Shown: positions 49,001-58,000 of the stretch, in pieces | How the letters are laid out: the number at the start of each line of letters is the position of its first letter | Numbering within the stretch: the first letter of the stretch is position 1 | Assembly (NCBI GenBank): GCA_964187785.1 | Contig: OZ076417.1 | Location: 34,162,001-34,226,000, forward strand | Origin: Amphiscolops sp. MND2022 | Lineage: Eukaryota | Reading direction: 5' to 3' | Length of the DNA stretch: 64,000 bases | Program-made: the position numbers

Positions 49001-52000
49001 CACATATGCACTGACCTCAAAGACACTATAATGTAGCTTATAAGTTATCTTGGAAGTTAAATTTTAGTGCCTAAGGCAGTACTTGATGTGAGTACTTAAA
49101 TCACATAGAGGAGATGGGCGAAAAGGAATCTTTCTTTTTACTACGGCGTTGTGCACATTGAAAATACTGAGTTAATTTAACAATTTTGATACTCAACTCT
49201 TTTTGAGCTGTTTTTTCGTTCAACAGTTTTTGTTGATTTTTCTCTTCGACTTGGTTTTCATGAAATAATTTTCAACTCACTATTGTTTTCTCACGAATCA
49301 TTTCCATTTTGTATGCTCATTCAGCATTTCGCAATCACATTTCACAGGGACCTATAATTCTGAATCGAATTATTTGAGAAAAGATCTTAAAAAGTTAACC
49401 ATACACGAATCATCAAGAGTACTGTATTGCTTCAAATTCCAAAGCCTCGGTTTCAAGTTTCAAATATTTGGATGAAAATTTTAACCAAAGCTGCATCAAG
49501 TTTCAGTCATGTTTCCTAACCAAACCTTGCACTGGAAGCAGTGACTAGCAAGAAAAAGGAAATAGCATTGAAGTGAACGTTTGACGGTACTTGTGACAAG
49601 GCTTCACATTTTCAATATGAAAATAATTGACAAGTTGGGTTGTAGAGTTCAACTCTGAATAATTCGATTTCAATACGAAGGGCAATGTGGATCATCTCAA
49701 TATGCCAAATTTGATCTTTTAAAATGCCAAATAGATAGCAGCTATTGTCTGCTTTGTTTTAGCTCTGACGTGCTAGTGAAGTACGTGGAAGACCAGTTCG
49801 AGAAGTATTTAGAAGAGGAACTGAGAATCAAACGAAATTTGCAGTCATTTCCTGACCCGAGAGTCCATCTCTGTCTCTACTTCATCAACCCTTCTGGCCA
49901 TGGGTTGGTCATCTTATAATAACCTGATCTGTATCAAAAGTTGTACATACAGTGTTTGCATTGAAGTCGACCTGGCTTTATTTTCTTAACGATTGCTGAT
50001 GAAGTTCGAGAGTCTATTGTCTCAGCGATGACCAAACCCATGAATAGATTTTTTCATAGGATCCTTCTTACTTGTAATACACCATAGTACCAACTGCTTC
50101 TTTTTTCTCCAGTTCTACTCAATGTTTACATCGTTACATTTGATTTTCGATGTTGAAGATTTTATCTGTGATTAATTGTTTCAGGTTGAGACCTCTAGAC
50201 ATCATCACGATGAAAAAACTGCATGACAAAGTGAATCTTGTGCCGGTGATTGCGAAAGCGGATATAATCACCAAGGAAGACTTGGCACTGTTCAAAACTA
50301 AAGTTCGTATTAATCATTTTTTATTCAGTTTTTGTTCATATGGGATGGACCAAATACGGTGAACTTTTGAAATCTCATTTTTACGATCCTGCATAGTCGA
50401 ACTTCTTGCTTTTTTTGAGTTATAAAATACGTTTTGTGCAATATTTTATTACTTTTCTTGGCATAGTGCTTGGCGTGGAGATCCGATTTTAGATATTCTA
50501 AGAGAAATATGTATTTCATGCAACAAGGACTTTTGCTAATATATTTTGGTGGCGATGTAACATTCATTCATTGACCATCCTTCAAATGGTTTTTAGCCGG
50601 CGCTTTTCATGAGAAAGTGCCCGACTATTGCAGTGGCTAGTTTTTTTTTCGTCAGACCACAGTGCTCACCCTTTTTATGTACCACTTTTTAGTAGATTTT
50701 AATCGGTTTAGGGGGAACCCAGCGGTCGCGGGTTCGAGTCCCTGCTTCAGGCAGAAACTTTTTCGTGCTTTTTCGAAACCGGACGAGTCTAAAGAATCCC
50801 CCTTTCAATTTTTGGCACTAAGATTTTCGATTTTTTTGTCTCCAAAGGTCCCCTCAGTTTTTTTCATATTTTGCAACAAACTGGAGTTTCAAAAAGCCCA
50901 AAGGGTCTCCCTTTTACATTTTCGGCAATATGAGACTGTTTCGAAATTCACATTTTTCGTCTGAAATTAGGTTTTCTCAATATTTACCCACGGATAATTT
51001 TTTCAATAATATCCGAAAATTTTGACGTAAGTAGTAAAGGAAGGGGGGTTATGAACGTTTTGGATGAATTTTCTAAGATAGAATTCTTGTGCACGTTTTG
51101 GGCTCCCAAGCGAAATTATTCTAAGATAGATTCACTGTGCACGTTTTGGGCTCCCAACTCGAAAACTTCCAAAGTCTTAAAGGTCAAACTGATTCTTCAT
51201 TCAAAATGTGTGGCATATGTCAAGCTTTATTTACATAGCAAAATTGATTAGAATAATCTCGACTCGGGAGCCCAAAAAGTGCAATGAGAATCTGAGAATA
51301 ATTTCGGCTAAAGAGCTGTAAACATGCACAAACTAGATCGAATAGAAGTCCAATACTACCATGTTCATAGGATCTCAGCTACTTTGGTCCTATAGTACGG
51401 TACTGTAAATTGAAAGATAGATCGAATATAAGTTCTAAAAACTATGTTAATTGAATCTTAGCTACTTTAGACCTACTGTATTGTAATGTATACTGAAATA
51501 TAGATCGAATATAAGTCCTATACGAAAGTGTTCATCAAATCTTAGCTACTTTACAGTATGGAACTGTATTTTGAAAAATAGATCGAATATAAGTCCAATA
51601 GTATAGTAATGTATATTGAAAGATCAAATATAAGTTCTCTACGACCGTGTTCATCGAATTTTAGCTACTATAGACCTATAATTTTGTACTGTATATTGGA
51701 AGATTGATCAAATATGAAGCCCATACGATCGTAGTCACCTAATAATAGCTACTTTAGACCTAGTATGATACTGTATATTGAAACATTGACCGAATATAAG
51801 TCCTATACGAAAGTGTTCATTGAATCTTAGCTAACTTTAGTCGTATAGTATTGTACTGTATATTGAAACATAGATCGAATATAAGTCCAATACTACCGTG
51901 TTCATCGAATCTTAGCTACTTTAGACCTATAATATGGTACTGCATTATGGAAGATAGATCGAACAAAGGTCATTTACGGCTGTGTTCATAGAATCTCAGC

Positions 52001-55000: not shown

Positions 55001-58000
55001 TGAAATTTGAACCGCTCTCCATAAAAAAACTTGGGGTCTCAAAAAACCTCTGCATAGTGAAAGTCACATTTTTTTCGACGTCGTTTGGTTTTTGGTCAGT
55101 TGCCTCATTTTGATGAAGGAGTCGCTTTGAGATCAATGAGTGAGACGGCAATCTCTCAGTGAAGAATTGAATCAAACCGAAGCAGTTAATGTAAGACTTC
55201 ACGAGATGAGCGACTAGTCTTCTATTGTCCTATCAAAACAGTAGTGTGACCCCAGTGATTCGATCGCTCGGTACAATTCAGATTAGTATAGTATCTAGCT
55301 GCAGGACTAATCACTCAGACCACACTGTCTGCTTGAATTGAAGTTTTCGTCTCAGCGTTAGCGGGCACTCAATTTCAACACAAGAAGCACAATGTTTAAA
55401 CGGTAAAAGTTCAATAATTTGTGGGGGGGGTGATTTCGATACAAATAGAATTCGTTTTGGAGTTGGTCTTTGGAAAAGTGATTGTAAGTTGTTTTTGACC
55501 TACAGTTTTTTTAGAGTACACGTTCAAAAGGTTTTTGGAAACTGTTAGAAAATTGTTTCAACACTGTCGACGTCCACTGAAAATACATGGTTTGCAAAGG
55601 TTCATGAAAATTAATTTTGCGCCAGGATTCACAAAAATCATCTCGCGATTCAGAATGAAAGTGCTAGCAAGAATAACAAATTTTTGGTCACTCTGTAGGA
55701 TGACAACAGTGTCATCGAAACTTTGTCCTTCGTAAATGCCTGAAACAATTTCTGAGCAATTGTTCAGATAAAAAGAATGGAAAAGTCAGGTACCACAACT
55801 AACCTACGTCATTTTGCGACATTTTTTCATAAACTGCAATCAGTGTCAATGTCCCAATAGCTTCAAGTGATTGCCCGTCGTGAGAAACAACATGTGTGGA
55901 GCTGTATCTCAAGTCACCTGCGTATTTGACCACGACGCAGGATTTTGGACGATGACTATAACGTTTGAAACGTCTGAGAAGCTCAGTCGTTTTCCCGCTA
56001 AACATAGGGCCAATAATTGCTTCAATCGATCCGGATTTGTTCGTTGCGTGTTTGTTGCAGAACTTCGTCCAACAGCGTTTATCGTCAAAAAGTGTTATGA
56101 TAATAGCAACGGTTTTTATTTGAGTCAGGTTTGCTTTTATCAATTCCGAAATCCGTTTGTTTCACTTCCAATAGACAACGTAGAAATTTTAAGTTGGTTC
56201 TTTGTTAATATTGACTAATAGCATGAATGGAAACTTCAAAGTTCAACTTGAAAGGGAAGTTCGTTTATGTTGTCAAGATAGTTTCAGTTTGTTTATATCA
56301 CCAGACCTCGTTGAATCAACTCGCTCATGTTTCAGTTGATTGTGTGGCGATATTGACCACTATTAGGATGATTAGGAACTTCTAAGTTCAACTTGGATTG
56401 CAAGTTCGTTTGAGTTGTCAACAAAGTTTCAGTTTGTTTATATCACCAGACCATTCGATCTATCTTTCAATAAACAGTATCATACTATAGGTTTAAAGTA
56501 GGTGAGATTCTATGAACACAGCCGTAAAGGACCTTTGTTCGATCTATCTTCCATAATACAGTACCATATTATAGGTCTAAAGTAGCTAAGATTCGATGAA
56601 CACGGTAGTATTGGACTTCTATTCGATCTATGTTTCAATATACAGTTCCATACTATGTCTGAAGTAGCTAAGATTCGATGAACACTTTCGTATAGGACTT
56701 ATATTTGATCTATCTTTCAATATACATTACTATACTATTGGACTTATATTCGATCTATTTTTCAAAATACAGTTCCATACTGTAAAGTAGCTAAGATTTG
56801 TTGAACACTTTCGTATAGGACTTATATTCGATCTATATTTCAGTATACAGTACAATACAGTAGGTCTAAAGTAGCTAAGATTCAATTAACGTAGTTTTTA
56901 GGACTTATATTCAATCTATCTTTCAATTTACAGTACCGTACTATAGGACTAAAGTAGCTGAGATCATATGAACATGGTAGTATTGGACTTCTATTCGATC
57001 CATTTTTCGATATACAGTTCCATACTATAAAGTCTGAAGTAGCTATGGTTCGATGAACACTTCGGTATAGGACTTATCGCGTTTTACTAAGGAGGACGCT
57101 GAGGTTCGAAAACATGCGCTTCCATGAAAACGTCCCACGCATATTTTAAAAACTGTGCTTTTGAGCCTTAGATATAGTGCCGACTTTGGACGTTCCCGTC
57201 TTGTTCTTTTGGATAAATGTTCCCCTTCCACGATCTTTTTACCACTGGTTTTTCTACATCTTGAGTATTTTGTAGATCCGAGCAGACATGAAAGAGAATG
57301 GCATCATAGCTTACGAGTTCCCGCTAGATGACGAGAGCAACGAGGAGCTGGTGGCCGAGAATAAGGAGGCCAACGAGAACGTGCCTTTCGCAGTCGTCGG
57401 CAGCACAGAGAAGATGAACGGAAAACGAGTGCGCGTATACCCATGGGGAACAGTCAATAGTTAGTGCCAAGAACTATAGACTCTCTAGTGCAACGAAAAT
57501 ACCACTTTGCAGTCTTTTCCCCCATAATGAGATTGTAAAATCACTTAGAAAGTGAACATTGTGGTTTCAACCGCACTTTCCTTTGAACGATTCAACATGG
57601 TTGCATAAAATACGTAACGAAGAGTTTCTGAAAATGATGCTTGCGTTATACTGCAAATCATGACGGACGTTGAAAAGAAGTACAATCATATTGGTTGAAT
57701 GAATGGTCCATCTTGCATGTTGGCGAATTGTTGGGTTTTGTTTCAGTCGAGAACAGAGATCATTGTGACTTTGAACTTCTGAGACAATCTGTGATTTGCG
57801 CTAACTTGGATGATTTGTGCGTGACAACAAACGAAGTGCACTACGAGGCATTCAGGAAGAGAAAGTTGCCCAAAATGGGGTTTGTTCTTCATACCGAATG
57901 TTATAGCTTTGAAGAAATCTGTATCGAAGTGTAATCCTTCAGTAGGATCGCCTGCAACCTCTCATTAAAGTAGAACCAAATTCAAATGTTTTCCAATCAC

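What the first reader, a model, noticed from the sequence alone, without database searches (positions are those of the whole stretch)
51335..57000. ~5.7-kb fold-back palindrome inside a septin intron: possible hairpin-RNA locus against TK1
Seen: two pairs of arms around a 17-nt spacer, with satellite arrays at both outer ends and a 1.25-kb deletion in the right arm. Any septin pre-mRNA contains both arms and could fold into ~0.66 kb plus >1 kb of imperfect duplex covering TK1 exon 1. Known: long hairpin RNAs give endo-siRNAs that repress cognate genes (Drosophila hpRNAs) and are ADAR substrates; Foldback transposons have tandem-repeat arms. Inference: either a TK-silencing hairpin or a Foldback-like element that captured TK1.
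Basis: partly seen in the sequence, partly recalled or inferred. Interest (0 to 1): 0.65.

Follow-up and report, generated by a model that had tools for sequence, protein, structure and literature searches.

The report
Palindromic repeat carrying thymidine kinase copies
A 5.7-kb inverted duplication inside a septin intron is built from two decaying copies of a widely repeated DNA unit that carries a thymidine-kinase gene, so it looks like transposon-type repeat DNA rather than a dedicated hairpin for silencing a host gene.

Summary
The palindrome is real: arms 51330-54984 and 55002-57006 around a 17-nt spacer, 83/84-bp satellite arrays at both outer ends, inside a septin intron. Non-satellite arms are 96.2% identical over 1400 nt and carry arm-specific events: a 285-nt SINE-like insertion and a 1238-nt extra segment on the left, 44 nt extra on the right. 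This argues against a chimeric read. The left arm holds a whole two-exon TK1-type gene (PF00265). The right arm holds a broken copy. The TK is not a lone host gene. These copies change almost as often at TK1-conserved positions as elsewhere (10.0% vs 13.8%). No ordinary TK1 is more than 50% identical. Best reading: an inverted pair of one unit of a TK-carrying dispersed repeat, Foldback-like in build, non-autonomous and decaying. Any double-stranded RNA it makes would match its own family, not a distinct host TK1. The hairpin-against-TK1 reading is untested and less likely. Interest is modest.

The parts
51330..57006 (.). Whole imperfect palindrome (5677 nt), symmetric part
51330..52048 (+). 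Left outer satellite array, period 83/84 nt (a 167-nt higher-order period is also reported), about 8.6 units
   Evidence: Mirror-image partners in the right array are 96-97% alike (I1 and I2), while neighbouring units are 74-81% alike
56453..57045 (-). Right outer satellite array. It is about two units shorter inside and runs about 40 nt further out than the mirror of the left end
52049..52400 (+). Left arm block with two ~145-nt subrepeats plus unique sequence. It pairs with 56101-56452 (339 of 352 identical)
   Evidence: (I18, I20)
52401..52685 (-). SINE-like element present only in the left arm. The right arm has the unoccupied site
   Evidence: Three copies in the window share both ends (also 43862-44176 and 47511-47827). 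The tRNA-like stretch on the minus strand is my reading by eye. ARAGORN and Rfam did not call it
52742..53348 (+). Left TK1-type gene, open in both exons: exon 1 52742-52982, 64-nt GT..AG intron 52983-53046, exon 2 53047-53348 with stop
   Evidence: (PF00265: exon 1 61.3 bits, exon 2 78.9 bits, cut-off 20.6). Exons were searched separately and never joined
55704..56044 (-). Right-arm TK copy, broken. It keeps exon 1, the intron and the first few codons of exon 2
   Evidence: (PF00265 68.5 bits)
53083..54320 (+). Left-arm-only segment (1238 nt): the rest of TK exon 2 and about 970 nt of non-coding 3' flank
   Evidence: No Pfam family in its ORFs
54321..54984 (+). Inner left arm, non-coding
54985..55001 (.). 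17-nt asymmetric spacer at the centre
   Evidence: direct reading. Five bases inside the spacer repeat the first five bases of the right arm and are complementary to the last five of the left arm
55002..55703 (-). Inner right arm, with 44 nt of its own at 55326-55369
   Evidence: 54321-55703 folds as one near-perfect hairpin, -1139 kcal/mol
50144..50359 (+). Stop-bounded frame holding the septin exon upstream of the palindrome (profile 125-167)
57276..57461 (+). Stop-bounded frame holding the septin exon downstream of the palindrome (profile 166-230)
51029..51334 (+). Unrelated short repeat whose end abuts the first base of the left satellite. A second copy lies at 61403-61686

Best explanation
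The region is a genuine, fairly old inverted duplication. Its two arms are sister copies of one unit of a dispersed, multi-copy repeat family. The unit runs: 84-nt satellite array, two 145-nt subrepeats, a short TK1-type gene with one 64-nt intron, then about 1.6 kb of non-coding tail. The TK gene is cargo. It came from an almost canonical TK1 that was picked up as genomic DNA (the intron is kept) and amplified with the unit, and the copies now drift nearly neutrally. I think the two arms most likely arose on the spot, by a fold-back or template-switch copying event that turned at the 17-nt centre. This gives a Foldback-like build: tandem repeats at both termini and no coding capacity for its own movement. 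After that the arms diverged by 3.8%. The left arm gained a SINE-like insertion just upstream of the TK start. The right arm lost 1.24 kb. The satellite arrays changed by two units. Shown: the anatomy, the multi-copy family, the near-neutral drift and the ability of the RNA to fold. Inferred: the capture, the fold-back origin and the lack of a dedicated function. Any double-stranded RNA made from the septin pre-mRNA would be a by-product, and it would match the family's own copies.
For: The palindrome and its arm-specific events are. The family: exon 2 finds 23 of 26 candidates at 58-93% identity, summing to 96 member sequences. Two more read-through ORFs appear and one more. I count 53 different longest-contig lengths over. 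Other copies carry the same intron read through in frame. They also share the upstream flank: 86% over 104 aa, including 24 residues upstream of the start position. They share at least 170 nt of 3' flank (one search compared by eye with P0001). Drift: 57 of 570 cells deviate in 29 TK1-conserved columns, against 103 of 746 in 37 variable columns. The family's commonest residue equals the TK1 commonest at 28 of 29 conserved columns, and the window's left copy at 26 of 29. Four copies share one frameshifted tail and one has an internal deletion. In exon 1, polarised with 3 other copies, each arm has 4 replacements and 1 one-codon gap of its own, and 1 change is shared by both arms. No other domain: 0 of 41 further ORFs of 50 aa or more in 51223-57323 reach a Pfam cut-off. 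No target-site duplication of 9 or 10 nt was found. The centre is asymmetric, with a 5-nt microhomology. Sister pairs recur: of 7 pairs of family ORFs on contigs of equal length, 2 are each other's nearest relatives at 94-96%.
Against: I could not read the DNA of any other copy, so I do not know whether other copies are palindromic or where the unit ends. The ENA contigs are unnamed and may come from more than one assembly or species, so the copy number per genome is unknown. Conserved columns do change somewhat less (odds ratio 0.69, p 0.04, cells not independent). Some copies keep 20 of 21 of the most conserved residues. Some members may therefore still be under selection. The left TK copy has an open frame and intact splice signals. 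Tandem arrays sitting exactly at both outer ends are what a mobile Foldback-type element would show, which fits the rival below as well. The host organism was not identified.
Confidence: 0.45

Rival explanations
1. A mobile Foldback-type element. The whole palindrome, with satellite-bearing terminal inverted repeats and TK cargo, is the transposable unit and arrived in the septin intron as a palindrome, moved by a transposase encoded elsewhere.
For: Tandem-repeat arrays lie at both outer termini in inverted orientation. This is the build described for Tetris (PMC4079207, abstract) and Tm1 (PMC3169594, abstract). The TK part is dispersed on many contigs. Near-identical sister pairs on one contig recur (2 of 7 same-contig pairs). 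There is no transposase inside, as in non-autonomous members.
Against: No 9- or 10-nt direct repeat flanks the ends. The ends are not symmetric: the right array runs about 40 nt further out, and the left abuts another repeat. The inverted symmetry runs through the cargo to a 17-nt centre instead of stopping at a unique middle. The two arms share a derived change relative to 3 other copies, so they are sisters rather than left-type and right-type arms of a propagated master. Gene conversion between arms could also explain that last point.
Confidence: 0.3
2. A working hairpin-RNA locus. The septin pre-mRNA or another transcript folds, is diced into small RNAs, and these repress TK-bearing transcripts, either a host TK1 or the amplified TK family itself.
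For: Both arms lie in one intron on the transcribed strand. 54321-55703 folds into an almost unbroken duplex. The outer arms add 394 nt at 94.7% covering TK exon 1. Hairpin loci that arose as inverted duplicates of rapidly expanding gene families are described in Drosophila simulans (PMC10317233, PMC10292708, 10.1101/2021.08.05.454923; I saw the search listing and the starts of the abstracts only).
Against: No expression, small-RNA or editing data can be seen here. The longest and best duplex (the inner arms) is non-coding tail, not TK. No separate TK1 more than 50% identical in protein was found among 1709 hits, so a distinct host target is not in evidence. The arms decay at similar rates with large arm-specific indels, as expected without selection for pairing. 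Any inverted repeat in an intron would fold in the same way.
Confidence: 0.1
3. An ordinary nested host gene. The left TK copy is the organism's working thymidine kinase sitting in a septin intron, with a partial inverted duplicate next to it.
For: The frame is open in both exons, the GT..AG intron is intact, and the P-loop, IDEGQFF and two CxxC pairs are present. There are strong PF00265 scores.
Against: It is one of dozens of diverged copies. It differs from the TK1 commonest residue at 3 of 29 conserved columns in exon 2. It has as many lineage-specific replacements in exon 1 as the plainly dead right copy. A SINE-like element sits 56 nt upstream of its start codon.
Confidence: 0.08
4. An assembly artefact: a fold-back chimeric read or a false join of two repeat copies.
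For: The unit is a repeat, and the window has an N run and a 99.5% duplication beside it. The assembly is therefore not flawless here.
Against: A chimeric read gives identical arms. These differ at 53 of 1400 positions and by a SINE-like insertion, a 1238-nt segment, a 44-nt segment and two satellite units. A false join of two copies would not meet at the same unit position on both sides.
Confidence: 0.04

Closest known systems
Foldback-type transposons with tandem repeats in their terminal inverted repeats: Tetris of Drosophila virilis (PMC4079207, abstract and outline read), Tm1 of root-knot nematodes (PMC3169594, abstract and outline read), Galileo (PMC3573991, PMC4168063, search listing only)
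   Same: Long inverted arms whose outer parts are tandem-repeat arrays, no transposase in most copies, variable and rearranged copies, and a link between repeat arrays and a dispersed element. Tm1 copies can enclose a gene (Cg-1).
   Different: Here the symmetry continues through the cargo to a 17-nt centre. No 9-bp target-site duplication was found. No shared terminal domain could be shown. The cargo is a complete TK1-type gene with an intron. Mobility of the palindrome is not shown.
Drosophila hairpin-RNA (hpRNA) loci (PMC10317233, PMC10292708, 10.1101/2021.08.05.454923: listing and abstract starts; pathway details recalled)
   Same: An inverted duplicate containing part of a gene that belongs to an expanding multi-copy family, able to fold into a long duplex within one transcript.
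   Different: No small-RNA evidence. The best duplex is non-coding. The arms are decaying with large indels. The locus is intronic repeat DNA rather than a separate transcription unit.
Gene capture and amplification by DNA transposons (Pack-MULEs, Helitrons; recalled, no paper read here)
   Same: A cellular-type gene, copied with its intron and flanks, spread to many loci and decaying.
   Different: A whole small gene rather than fragments. The carrier's class is unknown: no transposase, no recognised termini.
Large palindromes made by fold-back priming or template switching at short inverted repeats (recalled, no paper read here)
   Same: A short asymmetric spacer at the centre with a few bases of microhomology at the turn.
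   Different: The outer ends fall in the unit's own satellite arrays rather than at arbitrary points. The return junction cannot be reconstructed.
TK1-type thymidine kinases (PF00265). Nearest solved structures are 4uxh/4uxj and 5fuv, then 2j87, 1xbt/1w4r. 5fuv is Trypanosoma brucei; the other organisms are recalled only.
   Same: The full domain is covered by the two exons. The P-loop, IDEGQFF and two CxxC pairs are present in the left copy.
   Different: The whole family has Ile where ordinary TK1s such as P0003 and P0025 have the Asp of AALDG. No relative above 50% identity exists outside the family.

Membership tests
TK1-type thymidine kinase (Pfam PF00265) | Profile match above the curated cut-off over the whole domain | tested here: met
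   Exon 1 matches profile 1-80 (61.3 bits) and exon 2 matches 83-176 (78.9 bits), cut-off 20.6. The right copy scores 68.5 bits. Exons were searched separately.
TK1-type thymidine kinase (Pfam PF00265) | P-loop, IDEGQFF motif and two CxxC pairs of the zinc ribbon | tested here: met
   Read in the left copy and aligned to 4uxh. The right copy lacks most of exon 2.
TK1-type thymidine kinase (Pfam PF00265) | Residues conserved in at least 80% of 122 ordinary TK1 hits (29 columns of exon 2) | tested here: inconclusive
   The family's commonest residue agrees at 28 of 29 and the left copy at 26 of 29. Some ordinary hits also lack the Asp of AALDG (P0016, P0017).
TK1-type thymidine kinase (Pfam PF00265) | Kinase activity | not testable with these tools
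   none
Foldback-type transposon | Long terminal inverted repeats containing tandem repeats | tested here: met
   83/84-nt arrays at both outer ends in inverted orientation.
Foldback-type transposon | Target-site duplication (9 bp in Tm1, PMC3169594 abstract) | tested here: not met
   No shared 9- or 10-mer at the ends. One shared 8-mer lies inside the neighbouring repeat, not at the boundary. The left boundary is obscured by that repeat, so this test is weak.
Foldback-type transposon | Many dispersed copies sharing the same termini | not testable with these tools
   Only the TK part can be traced, through ORFs. No eukaryotic contig collection was open. The satellite has no other copy in the window.
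Foldback-type transposon | Related autonomous copies with a transposase | not testable with these tools
   None inside this copy (0 of 41 ORFs). The rest of the genome was not available.
Hairpin-RNA (hpRNA) locus | Both arms in one transcript and able to form a long duplex | tested here: met
   Both arms lie between consecutive septin exons on the + strand. The inner arms fold at -1139 kcal/mol. Transcription itself was not tested.
Hairpin-RNA (hpRNA) locus | Dicer-dependent ~21-nt small RNAs from both arms | not testable with these tools
   none
Hairpin-RNA (hpRNA) locus | A target gene in trans with near-perfect complementarity | tested here: inconclusive
   Family copies at 58-93% protein identity exist. 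No distinct TK1 above 50% identity was found. Nucleotide identity to other copies could not be measured.
Fold-back / template-switch inverted duplication | Asymmetric short spacer with microhomology at the turn | tested here: met
   17-nt spacer and a 5-nt repeat at its edge. A 5-nt match is weak on its own.

The most novel reading that the evidence does not exclude
The TK-like family is a recently expanding selfish gene family, and this palindrome is an emerging hairpin-RNA suppressor born from one of its copies. That would parallel the Dox-family drivers and their hairpin suppressors in Drosophila simulans, but with a nucleotide-salvage enzyme as the amplified gene and a Foldback-like repeat as its vehicle.
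Probability: 0.07. Interest if true: 0.7.

Novelty: new member of a known kind. Interest (0 to 1): 0.33.

Why it matters
Three practical points and one biological one. (1) A gene finder would call a thymidine kinase nested in a septin intron. It is one of dozens of decaying repeat copies and should not be taken as the organism's TK. (2) It is a clean example of a whole small gene, intron included, amplified as cargo of a repeat with satellite termini. That adds to the known link between Foldback-type elements and satellite DNA. (3) The palindrome's arm-specific SINE-like insertion and deletions give a relative time order that can be used to date the family. (4) The source of this TK lineage is unexplained: nothing outside the family is more than 50% identical. 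If small RNAs do come from the locus, they would bear on how such families are held in check.

Tried and rejected
ARAGORN found 0 tRNA genes in the window.

Rfam at E up to 1 over 43000-62000 gave 26 matches and 0 reached a gathering score. The miRNA-like matches at the centre and at 45.0 and 47.9 kb are generic hairpin matches.

The sigma-70 promoter and terminator scan does not apply to a eukaryotic locus and found no excess (10 promoter-like sites against 10.4 expected).

The search for related loci in genome contigs (prokaryotes) had 259 pattern matches and 0 confirmed.

The target-site-duplication search found none.

The LTR search in 2000-16000 found 0 direct-repeat families of 100 nt or more.

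Literature searches for a TK carried by a mobile element gave nothing relevant. PMC7593179 mentions only a single putative tdk transfer in a nematode (two passages read). I therefore know of no printed description of a TK-carrying repeat family, within those three searches only.

One search compared P0001 with the wrong frame and is void. One search gives the right frame.

The ESM Atlas placed exon 2 with TK clusters, and the top one is labelled 43% viruses (Nucleocytoviricota). I treat that as a weak lead only. The spliceosomal-type intron speaks for a cellular source.

I considered the short repeat at 51029-51334 as a terminal domain of the element, as DAIBAM is for Tetris. I rejected this because no inverted copy lies at the right end.

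
Full report
OBSERVATION. The repeat finder on 50000-58500 returned 48 inverted pairs (25 shown). Together they tile a left arm 51330-54984 and a right arm 55002-57006. Reading, the arms meet around a 17-nt asymmetric spacer (54985-55001, centre 54993). Tandem Repeats Finder reports arrays of period 83/84 nt at 51330-52048 and 56453-57045.

Mirror-image stretches of the two arrays are 96-97% alike (I1 and I2). Neighbouring units within an array are only 74-81% alike. 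So an already old array was copied as a whole with the arm. A global alignment of the non-satellite arms gives 1347 of 1400 identical positions (96.2%), with 26 transitions and 27 transversions. It also gives four indels of 4 nt or more: 285 nt and 1238 nt present only on the left, 44 nt only on the right, and 9 nt only on the left. The left array is also about two units longer inside (coordinates of I1 and I2). The window has one N run (44533-44932), far from the palindrome. I did not fill it.

SETTING. I scanned 81 stop-bounded + strand frames between 36 and 62 kb. Five match Septin (PF00735): 46829-47086 and 49659-49916 (both profile 83-128), 50144-50359 (125-167), 57276-57461 (166-230) and 57674-57931 (227-274). 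The palindrome therefore lies in the intron between two consecutive septin exons, on the transcribed strand for the left arm. The intron is full of other repeats. I did not take the window for human. Its short GT..AG intron, base composition and repeat content look like an invertebrate-type eukaryote, but I could not name it (one search gave no close relative).

THE TK GENE. The left arm holds a complete small gene on the + strand. Exon 1 is 52742-52982, the 64-nt GT..AG intron is 52983-53046, and exon 2 is 53047-53348 with its stop. Exon 1 matches Pfam TK (PF00265) positions 1-80 at 61.3 bits and exon 2 matches positions 83-176 at 78.9 bits, against a cut-off of 20.6. The two exons abut exactly in the profile, which supports the splice model.

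Among solved structures, exon 2 matches 17 distinct sequences, best 4uxh/4uxj at E 4.5e-22. Exon 1 matches 16, best 5fuv at 1.8e-16. 2j87 and 1xbt/1w4r are four to five orders of magnitude weaker. 5fuv is Trypanosoma brucei TK. The organisms of the other entries I only recall. The P-loop, IDEGQFF and two CxxC pairs are present.

The right arm holds a copy on the - strand (55704-56044) that scores 68.5 bits but is broken. It has lost its start codon by one substitution. One large deletion has removed all but the first few codons of exon 2. One residue of the catalytic motif is replaced in what remains, and it has one one-codon gap.

THE KEY RESULT: THE TK UNIT IS A DISPERSED REPEAT FAMILY. Searching exon 2 among proteins of similar length gave 23 hits out of 26 candidates. 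They are 58-93% identical, all from unnamed ENA contigs of 66 kb to 1.4 Mb, and their clusters sum to 96 member sequences. The search among longer proteins added two read-through ORFs, P0001 and P0002 (3 hits of 119 candidates). The exhaustive representative search added P0033. Listing five clusters (50, 16, 3, 3 and 4 members; 40 rows shown) and combining, I count 53 different longest-contig lengths.

In the alignment of 27 sequences, other copies read straight through the same intron in frame. They are therefore DNA-level copies that include the intron, not retrocopies. The flanks are shared too. P0002 is 86% identical to the right-arm frame over 104 residues, 24 of which lie upstream of the start position. 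The 3' flank of the window in the exon-2 frame resembles the tail of P0001 for about 170 nt, by eye.

Outside the family, the best single-domain hits among 1709 proteins with E up to 0.001 are at most 50% identical. The higher-scoring long proteins are tandem TKs that score through two or three domains, for example T. brucei and Anaeramoeba. So no close parent or separate host TK1 is in view.

ARE THE COPIES UNDER SELECTION? I placed 26 family proteins (27 aligned rows) on the 99 positions of exon 2. I did the same with 122 ordinary TK1 hits, drawn from the 150 listed (ids P0016-P0155) after leaving out family members and proteins over 320 aa. Family cells that deviate from the family's commonest residue number 57 of 570 (10.0%) in the 29 columns that are at least 80% conserved in ordinary TK1s. 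The figures are 90 of 684 (13.2%) in 33 intermediate columns and 103 of 746 (13.8%) in 37 variable columns. The odds ratio is 0.69 and Fisher p is 0.04, but the cells are not independent. A working enzyme family would hardly change its invariant positions, so this is close to neutral drift with at most a weak residue of constraint.

The family's commonest residue equals the TK1 commonest at 28 of 29 conserved columns. The one exception is Ile in place of the Asp seen in AALDG of P0003 and P0025. The founder was therefore nearly canonical. The window's left copy agrees at 26 of 29, and some copies keep 20 of 21 of the most conserved positions. Four copies share one frameshifted tail and one has an internal deletion.

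In exon 1, polarised with three other copies, the left arm has 4 replacements and 1 one-codon gap of its own. The right arm has 4 replacements and 1 one-codon gap, and a second gap column there is an end effect of my range. One change is shared by both arms. The open left copy has thus changed as much as the dead right copy, and the two arms are sisters. Between the arms, exon 1 shows 7 replacement and 5 silent codon differences. That is too few to separate neutrality from partial constraint.

ARM-SPECIFIC EVENTS. The 285 nt found only in the left arm is a discrete element. Three copies in the window share both ends but not their flanks, and the right arm shows the unoccupied site. It lies 56 nt upstream of the left TK start codon, so it separates that copy from its upstream sequence. 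The tRNA-like stretch on its minus strand is my reading by eye. ARAGORN and Rfam did not call it. These events, with 3.8% divergence, exclude a fold-back chimeric read, which would give identical arms.

WHAT ELSE IS IN THE UNIT. Nothing coding. Of 41 further stop-bounded frames of 50 aa or more in 51223-57323, none reaches a Pfam cut-off. Four have chance-level matches at E 0.014-0.054. There is no transposase. No part of the palindrome other than the SINE-like insert has another copy in the window. The left satellite starts exactly at the end of an unrelated short repeat (51029-51334), whose second copy at 61403-61686 ends at the same base. The right array runs about 40 nt further out than the mirror position. 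No 9- or 10-nt direct repeat flanks the ends.

HOW IT MOST LIKELY CAME ABOUT AND WORKS. Shown: a real palindrome of two sister copies of a multi-copy, TK-carrying unit, with near-neutral decay, no coding capacity for movement, and an RNA that can fold (54321-55703 gives one almost unbroken hairpin at -1139 kcal/mol). Inferred: a nearly canonical TK1 gene was captured as genomic DNA and amplified with a repeat that has satellite termini. At this locus one copy was duplicated in inverted orientation by fold-back or template switching. The 17-nt centre carries a 5-nt microhomology at the turn.

I give this 0.45. I give 0.30 to the rival that the palindrome itself is the mobile form of a Foldback-type element. 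Arrays at both termini fit Tetris and Tm1, whose abstracts I read. Two of the 7 same-contig pairs of family ORFs are nearest relatives at 94-96%. Of the other five, two are pieces of one copy and three are not sisters. The lack of a target-site duplication, the asymmetric ends and the sisterhood of the arms lean the other way.

A working hairpin-RNA locus gets 0.10. The fold is trivial for any inverted repeat, the best duplex is non-coding, and no distinct target is in evidence. If small RNAs are made, they would match the family itself. An ordinary nested host TK gene gets 0.08 and an artefact 0.04.

COMPARISON WITH WHAT IS KNOWN. In build it is closest to Foldback-type elements with tandem repeats in their inverted arms. 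The membership features I could test split: tandem-repeat arms were met, and a target-site duplication was not met. The other features, shared termini in many copies and related transposase-bearing copies, cannot be tested without the genome. It works like a captured-gene repeat (Pack-MULE or Helitron style, recalled). As a possible dsRNA source it resembles hpRNA loci that arise from expanding gene families (listing and abstract starts only).

My three searches found no printed report of a TK carried by a repeat family. Supplements were not consulted and might hold element sequences that I could not compare.

WHAT STAYED UNCHECKED. So I could not read the DNA of any other copy, and copy number per genome, unit ends and the host's name remain open.

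VERDICT. This is a new member of a known kind, of modest interest (0.33). The interest lies mainly in the unexplained, multi-copy TK lineage.

Noticed in passing
window 44933-47209 and 47758-50039: A direct duplication, 99.5% identical over 2282 nt, begins exactly at the edge of the N run (44533-44932). It duplicates a septin exon (frames 46829-47086 and 49659-49916, same Pfam positions 83-128). It is either a very recent tandem duplication or an assembly or haplotype artefact beside the gap. The N run was not filled.
   Followed up: partly
window 7322-11609, minus strand (open frames without a family continue to about 5276): This is the virus-like stretch as I read it: a Ty3/Gypsy-type retroelement fragment. 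Along the minus strand the domain order is aspartyl protease, reverse transcriptase, RNase H, integrase zinc finger, integrase core. The five domain matches lie in five separate stop-bounded frames, so pol is interrupted at least four times by stops or frameshifts. No LTR pair of 100 nt or more was found in 2000-16000. Described only.
   Followed up: partly
window 62806-63732, plus strand: A second integrase-core frame (PF00665, 47.8 bits) sits near the right end of the window, probably another retroelement fragment.
   Followed up: no
window 43862-44176, 47511-47827, 52401-52685: A SINE-like family of about 285-330 nt with identical ends in three copies and a tRNA-like stretch on the minus strand (by eye). 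The first copy has an internal insertion and deletion relative to the others.
   Followed up: partly
window 51029-51334 and 61403-61686: A short repeat of about 300 nt containing an internally repeated ~48-nt motif and an inverted copy of it. Its right end abuts the first base of the palindrome's left satellite.
   Followed up: partly
window 45031-45151 and 47856-47977: Two copies of a ~120-nt perfect-hairpin element that draws sub-threshold Rfam miRNA matches on both strands (45-49 bits against gathering scores of 90-180). They are copies of each other through the 2.8-kb duplication.
   Followed up: no
window 26779-27618, 27933-28685 and 36343-37566, plus strand: Host genes upstream: a frame with TPR repeats followed by a RING-finger frame, and three frames matching aldo/keto reductase. 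The TPR frame has no close relative among longer proteins.
   Followed up: no
TK family, alignment A1: Every family copy that covers the position has Ile or Thr where ordinary TK1s such as P0003 and P0025 have the Asp of AALDG. Two unnamed ordinary hits (P0016, P0017) also lack that Asp, so it may mark a wider TK lineage rather than decay.
   Followed up: partly
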